Virus genome (UHGV): UHGV-0188933
Direction: 5' to 3' (one strand)
Length of the DNA: 18,246 nt
Source: a virus
Both the position numbers and the translations under genes were made by a program. This document shows, piece by piece, positions 8,090 through 13,980 of this stretch. The notes below the pieces were generated by a model. The model was given only the letters and a program-made list of their open reading frames with translations, searched no databases and was not told the DNA's origin. The stretch's first letter is position 1, and each line of letters starts with the position of its first letter.

Positions 8090-8245
8090 ATGGCAAAGCT
8101 CACCGACAAACAAGAGCTGTTTGCCCGTGAGTACCTGAAAGATTTAAACGCCACACAGGCAGCTATCAGGGCGGGTTGGGCAAAAGCTCAACAACATGCC
8201 GTATTACCGCGCGAAACAATACGCGCAGATGCTTGGCATCGATGA
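8090..8245 (+). pseudogene. terminase small subunit, N-terminal stub (51 codons)
   Basis: MAKLTDKQELFAREYLKDLNATQAAIRAGW... is the conserved N-terminal helix-turn-helix of Terminase_2-type small subunits; frame ends at 8243-8245 after diverging. SD ggag 8 nt upstream. Confidence 0.7.
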
Positions 8246-9833
8246 AAACACGCTGATGGCGATGCGGCGCGGCATGAATGGCTTTACCGCCGATTACCAG
8301 TCGATGCTGCAAAAGACAGGGTTCAACGCTGATAAAGCGGCTGTTCAGTCCAACAAATTCATGACGTCCATGCGCGGGCTTACGTCGCTGTTCGGCATCA
8401 TGCGGGACAAGATCGGCTCAAACCTCGCTGGTGGCCTGGCTGGTTCGCTGGACAGCCTGCGGCGGCGCATCCTCGACAATTTCCCGAAGATTGAAGAGAC
8501 GCTGACCAGAGTTATTAAAGGCGTGATCTGGCTTGCGAACGCATTCACGAGAATGGCGTGGCGGCTGATACAGGGCGCTGGCTCTGTCATCGACTGGTGG
8601 AAGCGTCTTGACGATGGCAGTAAAAATCTGCTGAAAATATTCGGTGCTCTACTGGTCGCATGGCGTCTGCTTAATTCTGCGTTCCTGAAATCCCCGATTG
8701 GAATTATCACCACACTGATTCTGGCGATCGGATTGCTGTACGACGATTACCAGACGTGGAAAGAGGGCGGTAAAAGCCTGATTGACTGGTCCAAATGGCA
8801 GCCAGAAATTGAGCAGGCAAAGAAGGTGTTCAAGTGGCTGCGCGATAAGTTTCTGGAGCTCAAGGACAACCTCGGCGGCTGGAAAAATACGCTCACCATC
8901 CTGTTTGGCTTTCTGGCTGGTGCGAAGCTGGTCTCCATGCTCACTGGCATCGGGCGACTTGTCGCCGGATTTATGGGGCTTGGTAAGGCAATTGGCGGCT
9001 CTATTGGTGGGCTGGGTAAGCTGGCGCAGGGGATCGCACAGCTGGCAATCAAGAATCCATGGTTGCTTATGTTCATTCCTGCCAACAATACGCCGACCAC
9101 CAGTGAAGAAATGGCGTCGATTGGCGGTATAGGCAGCAATATCGTACCTGAAAGGCAGCAGGCATATGAGGCGCTGAGAAAGGAAAATCCCGGCAAAGAC
9201 TTTTTCACTGATGAGCAAATCCAGCGAAAAATTCAGGAGATGGGACTGGAGCCGGAGCAGCGAGCGCAGTCGGTTAAGCGACCTCAGGCGACGGCCCAGG
9301 GCAAGGTATTGCTCGACTGGATGGGGCCAATGTTCAATAAACTGGAGTCGCTTTATCAGCTGCCAGCTGGCCTGTTGAAAAGCGTGGCGATCACCGAGTC
9401 GGGTGGTAACCAGTTCGCCATATCCGGCGCAGGCGCGAAAGGACTGTTTCAGTTTATGGATGGCACGGCGCGCGACATGGGCCTGCGTGGGAATGATGTA
9501 TTCGACCCGGAAAAGTCAGCTCAGGCAGCCGCTAAGTACCTCAGCCAGCTGTTGCGGCAGAACGGCGGAGACCTTAGCAAAGCACTGGCATCATATAACT
9601 GGGGGATCGGGAATGTTAAGCGTTATGGAATGGGGCTAATGCCGCAGGAAACGCGCAACTACATTCCGAAAGTGATGAGCAATATGCCCACCAGCGCCCC
9701 GGTGATTCAGCAGGAAACGAACATTAACATCCACGGCGTTTCCGATCCGCGCGAGGCTGCCCGTTTGACTGTTGACCGTCAAAAGGGCGTGAATTCACAG
9801 TTAACCCAGCAACTCCCCGCAGGACCGAGATAA
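8196..9833 (+). CDS. tail tape measure protein, C-terminal portion, with lytic transglycosylase (SLT) domain; N-terminal part absent
   Basis: Typical TMP low-complexity Gly/Ala/Leu segments (LAGGLAGSLDSL, GKAIGGSIGGLGKLAQGIAQ). C-terminal ITESGGNQFAISGAGAKGLFQFMDGTARDMGL...ASYNWG is an SLT signature. Frame opens only at 8148, just inside the terS stub. Confidence 0.75.
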   Translation: MPYYRAKQYAQMLGIDENTLMAMRRGMNGFTADYQSMLQKTGFNADKAAVQSNKFMTSMRGLTSLFGIMRDKIGSNLAGGLAGSLDSLRRRILDNFPKIEETLTRVIKGVIWLANAFTRMAWRLIQGAGSVIDWWKRLDDGSKNLLKIFGALLVAWRLLNSAFLKSPIGIITTLILAIGLLYDDYQTWKEGGKSLIDWSKWQPEIEQAKKVFKWLRDKFLELKDNLGGWKNTLTILFGFLAGAKLVSMLTGIGRLVAGFMGLGKAIGGSIGGLGKLAQGIAQLAIKNPWLLMFIPANNTPTTSEEMASIGGIGSNIVPERQQAYEALRKENPGKDFFTDEQIQRKIQEMGLEPEQRAQSVKRPQATAQGKVLLDWMGPMFNKLESLYQLPAGLLKSVAITESGGNQFAISGAGAKGLFQFMDGTARDMGLRGNDVFDPEKSAQAAAKYLSQLLRQNGGDLSKALASYNWGIGNVKRYGMGLMPQETRNYIPKVMSNMPTSAPVIQQETNINIHGVSDPREAARLTVDRQKGVNSQLTQQLPAGPR

Positions 9834-10744: not shown

Positions 10745-11812
10745 ATGTCTCTTAACTGGATGCGCCATTTTGAGCTGCAACTGTTGGACCAGAACGGGCA
10801 GGGCGTTTCCCTGTCTGACTTTAAGGTCACGTTCCAGATCGAGTGGGCAGACACACGCTGGCCACGCGTGGCGAACGTGAAAATTTACAACCTTTCGACC
10901 GATACCACGAACAAGATACTGGGGCAGGAGTTTGCAAAAATTCGCATCATTGCCGGGTATGACGGTATTGCGCCGGATGTTGATGCGAGCCAGGTTGGTG
11001 TCGCCCGGGAGATTTCACCAGACCAGGTAGGGCAGGTGAACGGTCAGAACTACGGCCTGATATTTGACGGTGATATTCGCTTCACCGTCACCGGGAAGGA
11101 CAACATCACCGATTCCTGGGTGCTGATTCAGGCCATCAGTAACCACGAAGCGTTCCTCTACGCGACTACCATCACCACGCTTGCCGCTGGTTATACCGTT
11201 GCGGACCTGCACCGGGCGACTATGCAGGATTTCAACGCGTTCGGCGTGACGCAGGGCATTACCGGTGACTTTCCTGATACCGTGTTTCCTCGTGGCCGTG
11301 CGATTTATTCATCCACCCGTAACGTGATGGATAATATTGCTGCGCAGTGCAAAGCGACATGGCAGCTGGTGGATGGTCAGGTCCAGATGGTGCCGGAGGA
11401 TAAATATATTCACGAAGCCATTGTGTTGAATGCCGATACTGGCCTGATCGGTATGCCGCAACAAACGATGGGCGGCGGAGTAAACGTGCGGTGCCTGATA
11501 AACCCAAACATCCGTATTAATGGTCTTATCCAGCTCGATCAGGCTTCGGTGTACCGCGCCGCGCTCGGTAATAGCGAAATAGCACAGTCGCCCGGTCGCA
11601 TCACCGAAACAGAAGAGAACGGCAACCGCGTACTGACCGGCACAACGTCACAGGCTGCCAGCATTGCGACAGATGGCGTTTATATCGTCAAAGCTATCGA
11701 TTATACTGGTGACACCAGAGGTCAGGCGTGGTACATGGATTTGATGTGTTTTGCGCGTGGGGCTCGTGACCTGATTAGCCAGTCGACTATAGCTCGCTCA
11801 GGAGGAAATTAA
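10745..11812 (+). CDS. baseplate hub-like tail protein (Mu gp44 / P2 gpD position)
   Basis: 355-aa ORF immediately upstream of the spike/gp46/gpJ/gp48 module; assignment by synteny and size. Confidence 0.4.
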   Translation: MSLNWMRHFELQLLDQNGQGVSLSDFKVTFQIEWADTRWPRVANVKIYNLSTDTTNKILGQEFAKIRIIAGYDGIAPDVDASQVGVAREISPDQVGQVNGQNYGLIFDGDIRFTVTGKDNITDSWVLIQAISNHEAFLYATTITTLAAGYTVADLHRATMQDFNAFGVTQGITGDFPDTVFPRGRAIYSSTRNVMDNIAAQCKATWQLVDGQVQMVPEDKYIHEAIVLNADTGLIGMPQQTMGGGVNVRCLINPNIRINGLIQLDQASVYRAALGNSEIAQSPGRITETEENGNRVLTGTTSQAASIATDGVYIVKAIDYTGDTRGQAWYMDLMCFARGARDLISQSTIARSGGN

Positions 11813-12703
11813 GTGGGTACAAATAAGAACGGAATTCGATATAGCGCACTTTTTCTTTCCGGGTTGCTCTTATCCGGGGGCGCGAGTGCAGGCTTTAATT
11901 CCGCGCAGAACGCTGAGTACAAAAGACGTCCAGGATGGCAGCCGATAGTAATTTTATCGACAGATGATTGTCAGACATGGAAATCTAAAGGGAAGTCACT
12001 AATTGACTGGAGTGGCGAGATCTGTGGTCCTGACGGGTTGATTAAGGCAATCAATAAAAAGCCGGAGAATATACCAGCTTTTTATGCTGCATATCATGAG
12101 TACGGCACAGGTGGAGTTAGGGCTATCGATGTAAGAGATAATTCTCAGCTAAATTATCTCAATTTTGTAAATGATTTAGCTAAGAAACTTTCTTCTTCGG
12201 CTGTTGTATTAAAGATTTATGATGATTATATCATTGATAGAAAACCCATGGGGCTTGCAGAGGTTTCACGAGAAAATTTTGTAAAACAGCTAAATGAGTT
12301 ATCGCTGAAGCAACCTGCCATCTATCAAAAAATGAACGACGTAGCCAAGGCTGATTACGAGAAAAGTAGTAATGTTCACAGTAACGAAAAGCTTGGCGTG
12401 AATTACAAAACAGTCTGTGGTCCTTATACGATTGATCTGTCTTCTGCTGATGGTTGGGCCAGAATTAATGGCGCAAAACCAGAGACGCAAAAAATTAGCC
12501 CAATCGGCTCTGGTGGTAGCACCAAAGGGGAACCGGATAACATCAAGATGGAGTGGATGGCTGCCACTAATCAACCCGGCCGCTGGGTTGGGCTTGAGTA
12601 CATCAAGCGCAACGGAAAAGCTATTCTCAACGCACAGTGGTTGCAGGCCAGCATAGACGCGCCGCGCCAGTATGCAACATACGACTGCCGAAAAGTAAAA
12701 TAG
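11813..12703 (+). CDS. cargo (moron) protein, 296 aa: signal-peptide-like N-terminus and a TMP-like motif; function unknown
   Basis: GTG start 7 nt after GGAGG. N-terminus MGTNKNGIRYSALFLSGLLLSGGASAG looks like a signal peptide. Residues DDCQTWKSKGKSLIDWS parallel DDYQTWKEGGKSLIDWS in the TMP. Remainder is visibly AT-rich relative to flanking tail genes. Confidence 0.55.
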   Translation: MGTNKNGIRYSALFLSGLLLSGGASAGFNSAQNAEYKRRPGWQPIVILSTDDCQTWKSKGKSLIDWSGEICGPDGLIKAINKKPENIPAFYAAYHEYGTGGVRAIDVRDNSQLNYLNFVNDLAKKLSSSAVVLKIYDDYIIDRKPMGLAEVSRENFVKQLNELSLKQPAIYQKMNDVAKADYEKSSNVHSNEKLGVNYKTVCGPYTIDLSSADGWARINGAKPETQKISPIGSGGSTKGEPDNIKMEWMAATNQPGRWVGLEYIKRNGKAILNAQWLQASIDAPRQYATYDCRKVK

Positions 12704-12721
12704 CCCGCCAGATAGGCGGGC
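12703..12721 (-). terminator. GC-rich hairpin between the convergent cargo genes (terminator for the minus-strand gene)
   Basis: gcccgcc-agata-ggcgggc, 7-bp stem; on the minus strand it is followed by a T-rich tract (ctattttacttttc). Confidence 0.55.
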
Positions 12722-12726
12722 ATGCG

Positions 12727-13017
12727 TCAAAAATATTGAGCTTTAATTATAATAAACACAATAATTACGAACAGGATGTTTCTAATTATTTTTTGCTTAT
12801 GAGTAAGTTGTTTTTTTTCTGTCGATTTCCCGGGAGAGTAAAGGTTAGTGGTATGCGACAGCCCCGTGCCGGGAAGGCCATTTGTCATCTTTACGCCTTT
12901 TTTCCCGATGTTAATGGTGGAACCTTTACCACCAATTGAAGTGCTTACTCCGCTTTTACTAATGTTGATCGCGAGTCCGGGCGCAATCCGGATTCTTTTA
13001 CGAAATCTAAATCCCAT
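12727..13017 (-). CDS. DUF4236-like small protein with C-terminal transmembrane helix
   Basis: MGFRFRKRIRIAPGLAINISKSGVSTSIGGKGSTINIGKKG...PGTGLS resembles what I recall of the DUF4236 N-terminal signature; C-terminus IIRNILFVIIVFIIIKAQYF is hydrophobic. AT-rich, convergent with the cargo gene. Confidence 0.55.
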   Translation of the reverse strand: MGFRFRKRIRIAPGLAINISKSGVSTSIGGKGSTINIGKKGVKMTNGLPGTGLSHTTNLYSPGKSTEKKQLTHKQKIIRNILFVIIVFIIIKAQYF

Positions 13018-13204
13018 TTGTTACTCCTGTAGTCAATAATGCGATGGTGCAGGTCCACTCTATGGCGGCTTCATGGCTGAAATTGATTTTCAATGCTTAC
13101 TTGTTGCAAACATATCCTAATACACATTGTGAATGTGTGCCATTGCAGCGGAAAAGCCTTACTTCACACTGATGTAGCTTAGTTACTAAGAGATAATTGA
13201 TACC

Positions 13205-13228
13205 AAACCAGCTTCGGCTGGTTTTTTT
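13205..13228 (+). terminator. strong intrinsic terminator 12 bp upstream of the spike gene start
   Basis: aaaccagc-ttcg-gctggttt, perfect 8-bp stem with tetraloop, then TTTT (7 T in a row counting the stem end). Confidence 0.7.
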
Positions 13229-13239
13229 ATGGGGGTTTT

Positions 13240-13980
13240 ATGCCAATTCCAACTCAATCACAGATCGGCGGTGAGCAGCAGACCGCGCAGGCCATTGCCG
13301 ATTCGGTGTCTACCCAGATGCGCGTAGCGATGCCCGGCATCATTCAGTCGTTCGATCCTGACACTGTTACCTGCACGGTAGAGGTAGCGCTTCGCGGTAT
13401 CGTTGGCGATGGCTCCACCGAATTAAAACCGCTGGTGGATGTGCCGGTTATCTTCCCGCGTGGCGGCGGTTGTACGCTGACTTTTCCGGTTAAAGAAGGC
13501 GACGAGTGCCTGCTGCTCTTTGCCGACCGTTGCATCGATTTCTGGTGGCAGAGCGGCGGCGTGCAGGAGACCGTCGACCCGCGCCAGCATGACTTATCTG
13601 ATGCGTTCGCCATCGTTGGCCCACAGTCGCAAGCACGGAAAATCAGCGGTATCAGTACCAGCGCCGCGCAGCTGCGAACCGATGATGGTGCGGCGTTTGT
13701 AGAAGTCGCCGCAGGACATAACATCACCATTAAAACACCGGGCCAGCTTACAGCTACGGCTGAAGGTGGAACGACAATCACATCCCCGACTATCACGCTG
13801 AACGGCAACGTAACGATTAATGGCAACTTGTCTCAGGGAATGGGCGAAAGCGGCGGTACTGCGACGATGCTTGGGCCGGTGACGGTAACGAATGACGTAA
13901 CAGCTTCTGGTATCAGTGTCGCCACGCATAAACATGGCGGAGTACAGACTGGCGGGGGAACTACCGGAGGGCCGCAATAA
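13240..13980 (+). CDS. baseplate spike / assembly protein V (Mu gp45, P2 gpV-like)
   Basis: N-terminal OB-fold-like region (GIIQSFDPDTVTCTVEV...PLVDVPVIFPRGGG...GDECLLLFADR) and Gly/Thr-rich beta-helical C-terminus (TITSPTITLNGNVTINGNL...). Confidence 0.8.
   Translation: MPIPTQSQIGGEQQTAQAIADSVSTQMRVAMPGIIQSFDPDTVTCTVEVALRGIVGDGSTELKPLVDVPVIFPRGGGCTLTFPVKEGDECLLLFADRCIDFWWQSGGVQETVDPRQHDLSDAFAIVGPQSQARKISGISTSAAQLRTDDGAAFVEVAAGHNITIKTPGQLTATAEGGTTITSPTITLNGNVTINGNLSQGMGESGGTATMLGPVTVTNDVTASGISVATHKHGGVQTGGGTTGGPQ

What the first reader, a model, noticed from the sequence alone, without database searches (positions are those of the whole stretch)
11963..12013. Cargo protein shares a 17-residue motif with the tape measure protein
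The cargo ORF has ...IVILSTDDCQTWKSKGKSLIDWSGE..., and the TMP (8742-8792) has ...ILAIGLLYDDYQTWKEGGKSLIDWSKW.... In both, the motif follows a hydrophobic stretch. The nucleotides differ at many synonymous positions, so this is not a recent in-window duplication. The cargo gene may have captured a TMP-derived N-terminal segment, in which case its N-terminus is a TMP-like membrane segment rather than a cleavable signal peptide.
Basis: seen in the sequence. Interest (0 to 1): 0.5.

Follow-up and report, generated by a model that had tools for sequence, protein, structure and literature searches.

The report
Exported phage protein copies tape-measure motif
A secreted accessory protein in a prophage tail operon carries a close copy of the one stretch that never varies in this phage lineage's tape measure protein, which suggests, without proving, that it works in the periplasm as a decoy blocking DNA entry by related phages.

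Summary
Window 11963-12013 (DDCQTWKSKGKSLIDWS) and 8742-8792 (DDYQTWKEGGKSLIDWS) share 14 of 17 residues (BLASTP E=2e-6; 1 of 5000 shuffles reaches the score). The match also holds between the two families: hhalign gives E=3e-8 over 43 columns.

[quoted passage not shown] It was found only in TMP ORFs in 119 viral contigs.

The 296-aa "cargo" is not a membrane-anchored TMP fragment. It is an exported two-domain protein. Most homologues have a lipoprotein signal with a lipobox; the window copy has Cys->Gly and an ASA|G signal-peptidase I site. Next comes a low-GC helical N-domain that opens with the TMP-like segment, bracketed by two invariant cysteines. The C-terminus is a beta-barrel that 43 of 50 related phages encode alone as a small Sec-exported protein.

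The same N-domain occurs in 350-374-aa lipoproteins on satellite-like integrase-primase elements.

Best reading (inferred, about 0.35): a periplasmic mimic or competitor of the TMP core that excludes superinfecting relatives. The rivals are an exapted relic with an unrelated job, and convergence.

The window's own TMP is a 5'-truncated remnant of a defective prophage.

The parts
11813..12703 (+). The 'cargo' gene. It encodes a 296-aa exported two-domain protein. The GTG start directly follows the hub gene's stop codon.
   Evidence: ORF list and translation. 18 homologues of 265-299 aa with no Pfam, NCBIfam or PADLOC family. The exact protein is found in intact prophages elsewhere.
11800..11805 (+). 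Shine-Dalgarno sequence AGGAGG, 7 nt upstream of the GTG start.
   Evidence: Read from the sequence.
11813..11893 (+). Signal peptide (aa 1-27). It is lipoprotein-type in the family; the window copy has the lipobox Cys replaced by Gly and an ASA|G signal-peptidase I site.
   Evidence: Alignment A2. Lipobox scan: 15 of 18 homologues have one. AlphaFold2 pLDDT is below 50 for aa 1-32.
11909..12367 (+). N-domain (aa 33-185). It is all-helical and low in GC (0.36-0.41). It is shared with 350-374-aa lipoproteins on satellite-like elements.
   Evidence: AlphaFold2, composition profile, exhaustive profile search, genomic contexts.
11927..12025 (+). TMP-core-like segment (aa 39-71), RPGWQPIVILSTDDCQTWKSKGKSLIDWSGEIC. 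It is bracketed by the invariant cysteines C53 and C71, a putative disulfide.
   Evidence: hhalign E=3e-8. Invariant columns D51 D52 C53 G60 W66 C71.
11963..12013 (+).
12404..12700 (+). C-domain (aa 198-296), an 8-stranded beta-barrel with the invariant cysteines C202 and C292. It corresponds to phrog_3443. Most related phages encode it alone as a small Sec-exported protein.
8196..9833 (+). 5'-truncated remnant of the tape measure protein gene. It corresponds to aa 149-693 of the intact relatives.
   Evidence: The phrog_2276 match starts at profile position 195. The intact gene is 693 aa in L001. Junction alignment.
8691..8798 (+). Invariant core of the TMP family (aa 166-201): SP, a transmembrane-like helix, then DDYQTWKEGGKSLIDWSKW.
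   Evidence: All invariant columns of TMP alignments A3 and A6 fall in this stretch. In 119 viral contigs it was always at about residue 335 of 600-760-aa ORFs, where the ORF is complete.
8742..8792 (+). The TMP copy of the 17-residue motif.
9330..9632 (+). Lytic transglycosylase (SLT) domain of the TMP.
   Evidence: Pfam PF01464, E=2e-25.
8090..8245 (+). N-terminal fragment of a small-terminase-like ORF that runs into the deletion junction at about 8175. Head, sheath and tube genes are missing, so the prophage is defective.
   Evidence: Alignment to L001. The upstream DNA matches HK97/HK022-type phages. Upstream genes are lambdoid replication, Q and lysis genes.
10745..11812 (+). Baseplate hub gene immediately upstream of the cargo gene.
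   Evidence: phrog_196 E=9e-85; PF22759.
12727..13017 (-). Neighbouring accessory gene (DUF4236) on the opposite strand. Its terminator hairpin lies at 12703-12721.
   Evidence: RefSeq annotation of the relative. Pfam listing in contigs. Terminator scan.
13240..13980 (+). Baseplate spike (gpV-like). It marks the downstream edge of the hub-spike insertion hot spot.
   Evidence: Pfam PF18352 and the Apex motif.

Best explanation
The 296-aa gene is an accessory ('moron') gene inserted at the hub-spike junction of the baseplate operon of a Pam3/E217-type temperate myovirus.

Shown:
- Its product is exported. The family has a lipoprotein signal, predicted to target the outer membrane because no member has Asp at +2. 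The window variant has lost the lipid-attachment Cys and has a signal-peptidase I site, so it is probably soluble in the periplasm.
- The mature protein has a helical N-domain and a beta-barrel C-domain.
- The N-domain opens with a roughly 33-residue segment that resembles the invariant core of this lineage's tape measure protein. That core is the end of a membrane helix plus the aromatic/lysine-rich loop DDYxTWKEGGKSLIDWxxW.
- In the cargo the segment is shortened, made soluble, and bracketed by two invariant cysteines, which probably form a disulfide in the periplasm.

Inferred mechanism: the TMP is ejected into the periplasm of an infected cell, where it digests peptidoglycan and inserts into the membrane to form the DNA conduit. 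A resident periplasmic protein that displays the TMP's one unchangeable element would do one of two things. It could compete for whatever that element binds (a host envelope factor, the membrane interface, or another TMP protomer). Or it could co-assemble with the incoming TMP and poison channel formation. Either way the result is superinfection exclusion against phages of the same lineage. Export keeps the protein away from the phage's own tail assembly in the cytoplasm.

The most likely origin is an ancient capture of a TMP fragment into a lipoprotein module, which then spread between prophages and satellite-like elements.
For: - The similarity is significant and holds at family level.
- The TMP stretch is the only invariant block of the TMP family. 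The pattern found only TMP ORFs in 119 viral contigs, and it spans phages of several bacterial genera. It is therefore an escape-proof target.
- Export signals are present: lipobox in 15 of 18 homologues, none with Asp at +2, and ASA|G in the window copy.
- C53 and C71 are invariant and flank the motif.
- AlphaFold2 places the motif as helix end plus loop in a confident helical domain (pLDDT 80-97). The low-confidence TMP model shows the same helix-loop-helix pattern.
- GC falls to 0.36-0.41 against about 0.54 in the flanking tail genes, so the N-domain is foreign DNA.
- The gene is optional. Most lineage members have only the small barrel protein, and only 4 of 5426 complete E. coli genomes match the N-domain-coding DNA.
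- The same N-domain sits in lipoproteins at the accessory-gene position of integrase-AlpA-primase elements. That position is known from the literature as a hot spot for anti-phage genes (my own knowledge, not tested here).
- Precedents. The TP-J34 Ltp lipoprotein excludes phages by targeting the TMP (Bebeacua et al. 2013, reference seen in PMC3952083). Lipoproteins encoded inside structural gene clusters exclude phages (PMC11893012). HK97 TMP needs the host factors PtsG and FkpA (cited in PMC11456595).
Against: - There is no functional data.
- There is no covariation. In L002 the TMP motif is identical to the window's, yet its cargo homologue has DDCETAKAGGKTLLKWS (10 of 17). Satellite-borne versions keep only 7-10 of 17 residues.
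- Within the N-domain the motif is no more conserved than other blocks such as FYAAYHEYG.
- No convincing independent promoter for expression in the lysogen was found. The gene looks translationally coupled to the late hub gene.
- The window copy lacks the lipidation Cys.
- The role of the TMP motif itself is unknown, and related virion structures do not resolve this region.
- No PADLOC, Pfam or NCBIfam match supports a defence role.
Confidence: 0.35

Rival explanations
1. Exapted relic. The N-domain descends from a captured TMP fragment, but the motif now serves only as a structural element (a helix cap plus a disulfide-stapled loop) of a periplasmic protein. That protein's job has nothing to do with TMPs; it could be envelope modification, receptor masking, or something the barrel domain does.
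For: - The motif drifts in family members whose cognate TMP motif is unchanged.
- It is no better conserved than the rest of the N-domain.
- Its codons have diverged, including switches between serine codon families.
- The barrel C-domain is the widespread part and exists without the motif in 43 of 50 related phages.
Against: - Ten positions (D, D, T, W/Y, K, G, G, S, L, W) persist from the phage-borne forms to many of the satellite-borne forms, which indicates selection on the TMP-like pattern.
- The carriers are elements that meet phages of this lineage.
Confidence: 0.3
2. Convergence or chance. Both segments are aromatic/lysine-rich membrane-interface sequences that follow a helix. The resemblance reflects similar physical requirements, not common origin or mimicry.
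For: - The shared region is short.
- Nothing collinear was found outside about 43 columns.
- The half-motif GKxLLDW also recurs at the start of the SLT module in 26 of 90 TMPs, so short variants do arise.
- The N-domain profile does not reach TMPs at whole-database significance.
Against: - 14 of 17 residues are identical; pairwise E=2e-6; hhalign E=3e-8; 1 of 5000 shuffles reaches the score.
- Among 11,984 ORFs the N-domain profile hits nothing except TMPs, always at the motif.
- The motif pattern found only TMP ORFs in 119 viral contigs.
Confidence: 0.15
3. The cargo N-terminus is a TMP-derived membrane segment that anchors the protein, not a cleavable signal.
For: The N-terminus is hydrophobic, and the window copy lacks the lipobox Cys.
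Against: - There is a canonical lipobox in 15 of 18 homologues and an ASA|G site in the window copy.
- The signal region has no similarity to the TMP helices. The TMP-like piece begins at aa 39, after a polar linker.
- The stand-alone barrel proteins at the same locus all have ordinary Sec signals.
Confidence: 0.05
4. A virion or tail-assembly component. On this reading the protein is loaded into the tail or baseplate through the same contacts as the TMP.
For: It lies inside the baseplate operon with a translationally coupled start.
Against: - The export signal and conserved cysteine pairs point to the periplasm.
- The N-domain is absent from most phages of the lineage.
- The N-domain also occurs on elements that have no tail genes.
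Confidence: 0.05

Closest known systems
Ltp of Streptococcus thermophilus phage TP-J34, a superinfection-exclusion lipoprotein that targets the tape measure protein
   Same: It is a prophage-encoded lipoprotein exposed outside the cytoplasmic membrane. Its reported target is the TMP of incoming phages, and it blocks DNA injection (Bebeacua et al. 2013, reference seen in PMC3952083).
   Different: Ltp comes from a Gram-positive host. No sequence relationship was detected, as the cargo has no Pfam family. Ltp is not described as carrying a TMP-like sequence. The cargo sits in the baseplate operon. No exclusion phenotype has been tested for it.
HK97 gp15 (a moron in the tail region) and the HK97 TMP-PtsG-FkpA entry pathway
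   Same: It is an accessory gene embedded in tail genes that blocks genome entry at the TMP step. It establishes that TMPs depend on host envelope factors (cited in PMC11456595; the gp15 details are from my own knowledge).
   Different: gp15 is a small inner-membrane protein, not an exported lipoprotein. No homology to the cargo was found, and no TMP-like motif is reported for it.
Cor (phi80/N15/T1) and Llp (T5) exclusion lipoproteins; Lpp exclusion lipoproteins of mEpimmI phages
   Same: They are lipoproteins encoded within or next to tail genes that exclude related phages (PMC11893012; PMC9586334, listed).
   Different: They are much smaller (roughly 60-80 aa). They act by blocking the outer-membrane receptor, not the TMP. 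They are unrelated in sequence to the cargo.
T4 Spackle (Sp), a periplasmic inhibitor of the tail lysozyme gp5
   Same: It is a small Sec-exported phage protein that acts in the periplasm on a tail-borne ejection or lysis component of superinfecting phages (my own knowledge).
   Different: Similarity of sequence or fold was not tested. Spackle inhibits an enzyme domain rather than copying a segment of its target.
phrog_3443, the small exported proteins at the hub-spike junction of Brunovirus SEN34, Klebsiella prophages and related phages
   Same: The cargo C-domain (aa 198-296) belongs to this family (E=3.4e-34). Same genomic position and same Cys pair.
   Different: Those proteins are about 95 aa when mature, have an ordinary Sec signal, and lack the N-domain and therefore the TMP-like motif.

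Membership tests
Tape measure protein family of this lineage (phrog_2276 / SLT-type TMP) | A 600-760-aa protein encoded between the tail assembly chaperone and the Dit-like baseplate gene. | tested here: not met
   The cargo is 296 aa and lies between the hub and spike genes.
Tape measure protein family of this lineage (phrog_2276 / SLT-type TMP) | Profile similarity along the length of the protein. | tested here: not met
   Only 43 columns align by hhalign. The cargo has no PHROG TMP hit.
Tape measure protein family of this lineage (phrog_2276 / SLT-type TMP) | The invariant core SP-helix-DDYxTWKEGGKSLIDWxxW. | tested here: inconclusive
   The cargo has a related but altered version: RPGW, a shortened helix, then DDCQTWKSKGKSLIDWS, with 14 of 17 identical in the motif.
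Bacterial lipoproteins (Lgt/LspA pathway) | A signal peptide ending in a lipobox [LVI][ASTVI][GAS]C. | tested here: not met
   The window copy has LLLSGGASAG, with Gly in place of Cys. The family does meet the feature: 15 of 18 homologues and nearly all the 350-aa relatives have it.
Bacterial lipoproteins (Lgt/LspA pathway) | Lipid modification and signal-peptidase II cleavage. | not testable with these tools
   This needs palmitate labelling and globomycin sensitivity.
Sec-exported periplasmic protein | A basic n-region, a hydrophobic h-region and an AXA cleavage site. | tested here: met
   K5 and R9; h-region aa 11-22; ASA|G at aa 25-27. No dedicated predictor was available. AlphaFold2 leaves aa 1-32 disordered.
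phrog_3443 small exported barrel proteins | A profile match, the Cys pair, and a position after the hub gene. | tested here: met
   E=3.4e-34 for aa 198-296. C202 and C292 are invariant. Same position in 43 of 50 loci.
Moron (independent accessory unit in a phage late operon) | Composition that differs from the flanking genes, and presence only in some phages. | tested here: met
   GC 0.36-0.41 against about 0.54. The N-domain is present in 2 of 50 lineage loci.
Moron (independent accessory unit in a phage late operon) | Its own promoter and terminator. | tested here: inconclusive
   Only one weak promoter-like match, no more than the chance expectation. There is no plus-strand terminator directly after the gene. 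The start is coupled to the hub stop codon.
Superinfection-exclusion proteins that act on the TMP (Ltp-like in function) | Blocks DNA entry by phages, with specificity set by the TMP. | not testable with these tools
   This requires plating, adsorption and DNA-entry assays, plus mapping of escape mutants.
Known anti-phage defence families (PADLOC) | A profile match. | tested here: not met
   No hit better than E=0.02.

The most novel reading that the evidence does not exclude
A previously undescribed family of phage- and satellite-borne periplasmic lipoproteins excludes a whole lineage of myoviruses by molecular mimicry. They display a disulfide-stapled copy of the invariant membrane-interface element of the tape measure protein. 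In that way they compete with, or poison, the incoming ejection protein at a site the phage cannot mutate.
Probability: 0.25. Interest if true: 0.75.

Novelty: new variant of a known kind. Interest (0 to 1): 0.5.

Why it matters
If the mimicry reading holds, two things follow.

First, it would be a new logic for superinfection exclusion: a decoy copy of the invader's own ejection protein rather than a receptor blocker.

Second, it would single out the TMP core DDYxTWKEGGKSLIDW as the functionally critical, non-mutable step of genome delivery in a widespread group of temperate and lytic myoviruses. That group includes the Acinetobacter AP22-like phages used in therapy work. The motif region is not resolved in virion structures of related myoviruses (Pa193), so the decoy would give a direct handle for studying it.

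Even if the segment is only a relic, it documents a structural-gene fragment being recruited into an exported accessory module that moves between prophages and satellite-like elements.

Tried and rejected
- Covariation. I asked whether each cargo's motif tracks its own phage's TMP motif. It does not: the L002 TMP motif is identical to the window's while its cargo motif matches only 10 of 17. This rules out recent gene conversion and tight co-evolution.
- Sequence families. The cargo has no match in Pfam, NCBIfam, PADLOC or PDB sequences. The satellite-type relatives have no Pfam or PADLOC match either.
- AlphaFold2 of the TMP central region gave pLDDT 44. Only the helix-loop-helix pattern around the motif is usable, and weakly.
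- A second weak match (N-domain profile positions 105-139 against TMP residues about 185-222) is not collinear with the first and appears in only some TMPs. I treated it as spurious.
- P0070, an 836-aa repeat protein, matched the motif region weakly. It has no real motif and I dismissed it.
- The search for homologous proteins with the TMP centre returned only fragments of 427 aa or less. TMP breadth was therefore taken from tblastn and a DNA pattern scan.
- Megablast of the N-domain DNA against complete E. coli genomes found nothing. Distant-mode blastn found 4 genomes.
- Literature searches for the motif string and for TMP decoys found nothing relevant.

Full report
**1. The observation**

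Window 11963-12013 translates to DDCQTWKSKGKSLIDWS and 8742-8792 to DDYQTWKEGGKSLIDWS. These are aa 51-67 of the 296-aa ORF 11813-12703 and aa 183-199 of the ORF 8196-9833. Fourteen of 17 residues are identical.

- BLASTP on the pair gives 35 bits, E=2e-6.
- The Smith-Waterman score of 79 was reached by 1 of 5000 shuffles (Gumbel p about 3e-5).
- At the DNA level 32 of 51 bases match. Seven of the 14 conserved residues use different codons, and both serines have switched codon family.

**2. What the two genes are**

The surrounding genes form the tail and baseplate module of a Pam3/E217/XM1-type 'simple' myovirus. In order they are:

| Gene | Evidence |
|---|---|
| TMP with an SLT domain | |
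| Dit-like protein | |
| Plug | |
| Hub | |
| Cargo gene, with a DUF4236 gene on the minus strand | |
| gpV-like spike | |
| Sheath initiator, baseplate J, wedge, fibre genes | |

The window's prophage is defective. A small-terminase-like ORF (8090-8245) runs into a junction at about 8175. Beyond that point the DNA continues in the middle of the TMP gene, and the ORF begins at the Met that is residue 149 of the 693-aa protein in relatives. Upstream lie lambdoid replication, Q and lysis genes. The 'TMP' in this window is therefore a 5'-truncated remnant. Intact relatives carry the identical motif.

**3. The motif in tape measure proteins**

In two alignments of diverged TMPs (down to 28% identity), every invariant column falls within aa 166-201: SP, a transmembrane-like helix, then DDYxTWKEGGKSLIDWxxW.

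- tblastn finds this stretch in 112 phage records from Escherichia, Klebsiella, Salmonella (SEN34), Hafnia, Citrobacter, Acinetobacter (AP22-like) and Elizabethkingia.
Every hit was in a TMP-type ORF, at about residue 335 of 600-760-aa ORFs wherever the ORF was complete.
- The motif is therefore a lineage hallmark, not a common or low-complexity element.
- Its function is unknown. In the related Pa193 virion only the TMP C-terminus is resolved. That paper hypothesises that the TMP is ejected, digests peptidoglycan in the periplasm and forms the DNA conduit (PMC11456595).

**4. The cargo protein**

It has only 18 homologous clusters among 5.8 billion proteins, all 248-299 aa.

- *Signal.* Fifteen of 18 have a lipoprotein signal with a lipobox, and none has Asp at +2. 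The window copy has Gly in place of the lipobox Cys and an ASA|G site. This exact protein is nevertheless frequent, in at least 68 index blocks, and occurs in intact prophages at several chromosomal sites.
- *C-domain.* The barrel matches phrog_3443. In 43 of 50 lineage loci with enough downstream sequence, it is encoded alone, about 3 kb downstream of the TMP motif, as a small protein with an ordinary Sec signal. Only 2 of 50 have the N-domain.
- *N-domain.* Its coding DNA is foreign: GC 0.36-0.41 against about 0.54. Only 4 of 5426 complete E. coli genomes carry it.

**5. Extent and depth of the similarity**

hhalign of the cargo family against the TMP family gives 95% probability, E=3e-8, over 43 columns: cargo 39-81 against TMP 167-213 (window-ORF numbering). 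It pairs RPGW..IL..DDC with SPIG..LLYDDY, with a 4-residue gap inside the TMP's transmembrane helix. The motif sits at the end of helix 42-57 and in loop 58-72, bracketed by the invariant C53 and C71. The low-confidence TMP model shows the same helix-loop-helix pattern.

An exhaustive profile search with the N-domain against 1.84 billion representatives found only 20 proteins.

- Besides the cargo family, these are 350-374-aa lipoproteins with the same N-domain and a different C-terminal domain.
- They lie on integrase-AlpA-primase, satellite-like elements, and are also found in Kosakonia and Phytobacter.
- One such element sits between head genes of a prophage of the same lineage.

Identity of the motif to the TMP consensus varies across these groups:

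| Group | Identity to TMP consensus |
|---|---|
| Window-type (Enterobacteriaceae) subfamily | 13-14 of 17 |
| Other phage-borne members | 9-12 of 17 |
| Satellite-borne members | 7-10 of 17 |
| Most distant relatives | 5-9 of 17 (only DD...GGKSL retained) |

A core of D-D-x-x-T-[WY]-K-x-G-G-x-S-L-x-x-W is retained in the phage-borne forms and in many of the satellite-borne forms. The resemblance is therefore ancestral to the N-domain family, not a quirk of one sequence.

Searched against 11,984 ORFs from 140 loci, the N-domain profile hit nothing but family members and TMPs, always at the motif.

**6. Interpretation**

The idea that the N-terminus is a membrane segment rather than a signal peptide is not supported (section 4).

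The facts to explain:
- an exported, optional, horizontally mobile module;
- carried by prophages and satellite-like elements;
- displaying a probably disulfide-stapled version of the one element of the lineage's ejection protein that never changes.

The reading I favour is a periplasmic mimic or competitor that interferes with the incoming TMP, giving superinfection exclusion. Precedents for the logic:
- the TP-J34 lipoprotein Ltp, whose target is the TMP (reference seen);
- exclusion lipoproteins encoded within structural clusters;
- the dependence of HK97 TMP on host envelope factors.

This mechanism is inference, not demonstration. Against it:
- the cargo motif does not co-vary with the cognate TMP and drifts in some subfamilies;
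- no independent promoter was found;
- no defence-family match exists.

The main rival is that the segment is an exapted relic with a purely structural role. Convergence of two membrane-interface sequences is less likely given the statistics, but it is not excluded. A half-motif, GKxLLDW, recurs at the start of the SLT module in 26 of 90 TMPs.

**7. Novelty and score**

The family has no Pfam, NCBIfam or PADLOC model. I found no paper mentioning the motif or a TMP decoy. I file it as a new variant of a known kind: an exported accessory or exclusion-type protein in a phage tail operon. Its distinguishing feature is a family-level, statistically solid similarity to the invariant TMP core.

Noticed in passing
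window 8090-8260: The prophage is defective. A small-terminase-like N-terminal ORF runs into a junction at about 8175, beyond which the DNA continues mid-way through the tape measure gene (the ORF starts at the Met that is residue 149 of 693). All head, sheath and tube genes are missing.
   Followed up: yes
window 11813-11893: The lipobox Cys of the cargo family is replaced by Gly in the window copy (LLLSGGASA|G). This exact variant is common (at least 68 index blocks) and occurs in intact prophages at different chromosomal sites, so it is probably a functional soluble periplasmic form rather than a decayed gene.
   Followed up: partly
window 12404-12700; L018-L136 (e.g. L034 6032-6382): A small Sec-exported beta-barrel protein (phrog_3443) with a conserved Cys pair is encoded right after the hub gene in 43 of 50 phages of this lineage. 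This is a near-core exported protein inside a baseplate operon, and its function is unknown.
   Followed up: partly
L013 7124-19500; L014-L016 1600-11125; L143 and L144 9860-10939: Lipoproteins of 350-374 aa with the same N-domain but a different C-terminal domain (ending ...SHWAGMARVYSSRGY) lie on integrase-AlpA-primase (DUF927) satellite-like elements. In L013 the element is inserted between the scaffold and cement/capsid genes of a prophage of the same lineage.
   Followed up: partly
L002 6035-8041: A TMP with the identical core motif lacks the SLT domain and has a different C-terminal module (contains RGIRNNNPGNIEF). The enzymatic end of the TMP is swapped while the core stays invariant.
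   Followed up: no
window 9294-9329 (TMP aa 367-378): The half-motif QGKVLLDWMGP, similar to the cargo's KGKSLIDWSGE, lies at the start of the SLT module. It is present in 26 of 90 full-length TMPs of the lineage.
   Followed up: partly
window 12703-13239: A second accessory unit lies at the hub-spike hot spot. It comprises a DUF4236 gene on the minus strand (12727-13017), its GC-rich terminator hairpin (12703-12721) abutting the cargo stop codon, and a plus-strand terminator-like hairpin (13205-13224) just before the spike gene.
   Followed up: no
window 11900-12500: GC content falls to 0.36-0.41 in the N-domain coding part, against about 0.54 in the flanking tail genes and about 0.48 in the C-domain part. 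This indicates that the N-domain was acquired from a lower-GC source.
   Followed up: yes
L005 2225-3380; L006 2513-3284; L141 10893-12021: The hub-spike junction carries different extra ORFs in different relatives (257 and 131 aa; 144, 35 and 82 aa; 258 and 123 aa). It is a general insertion hot spot for accessory genes.
   Followed up: no
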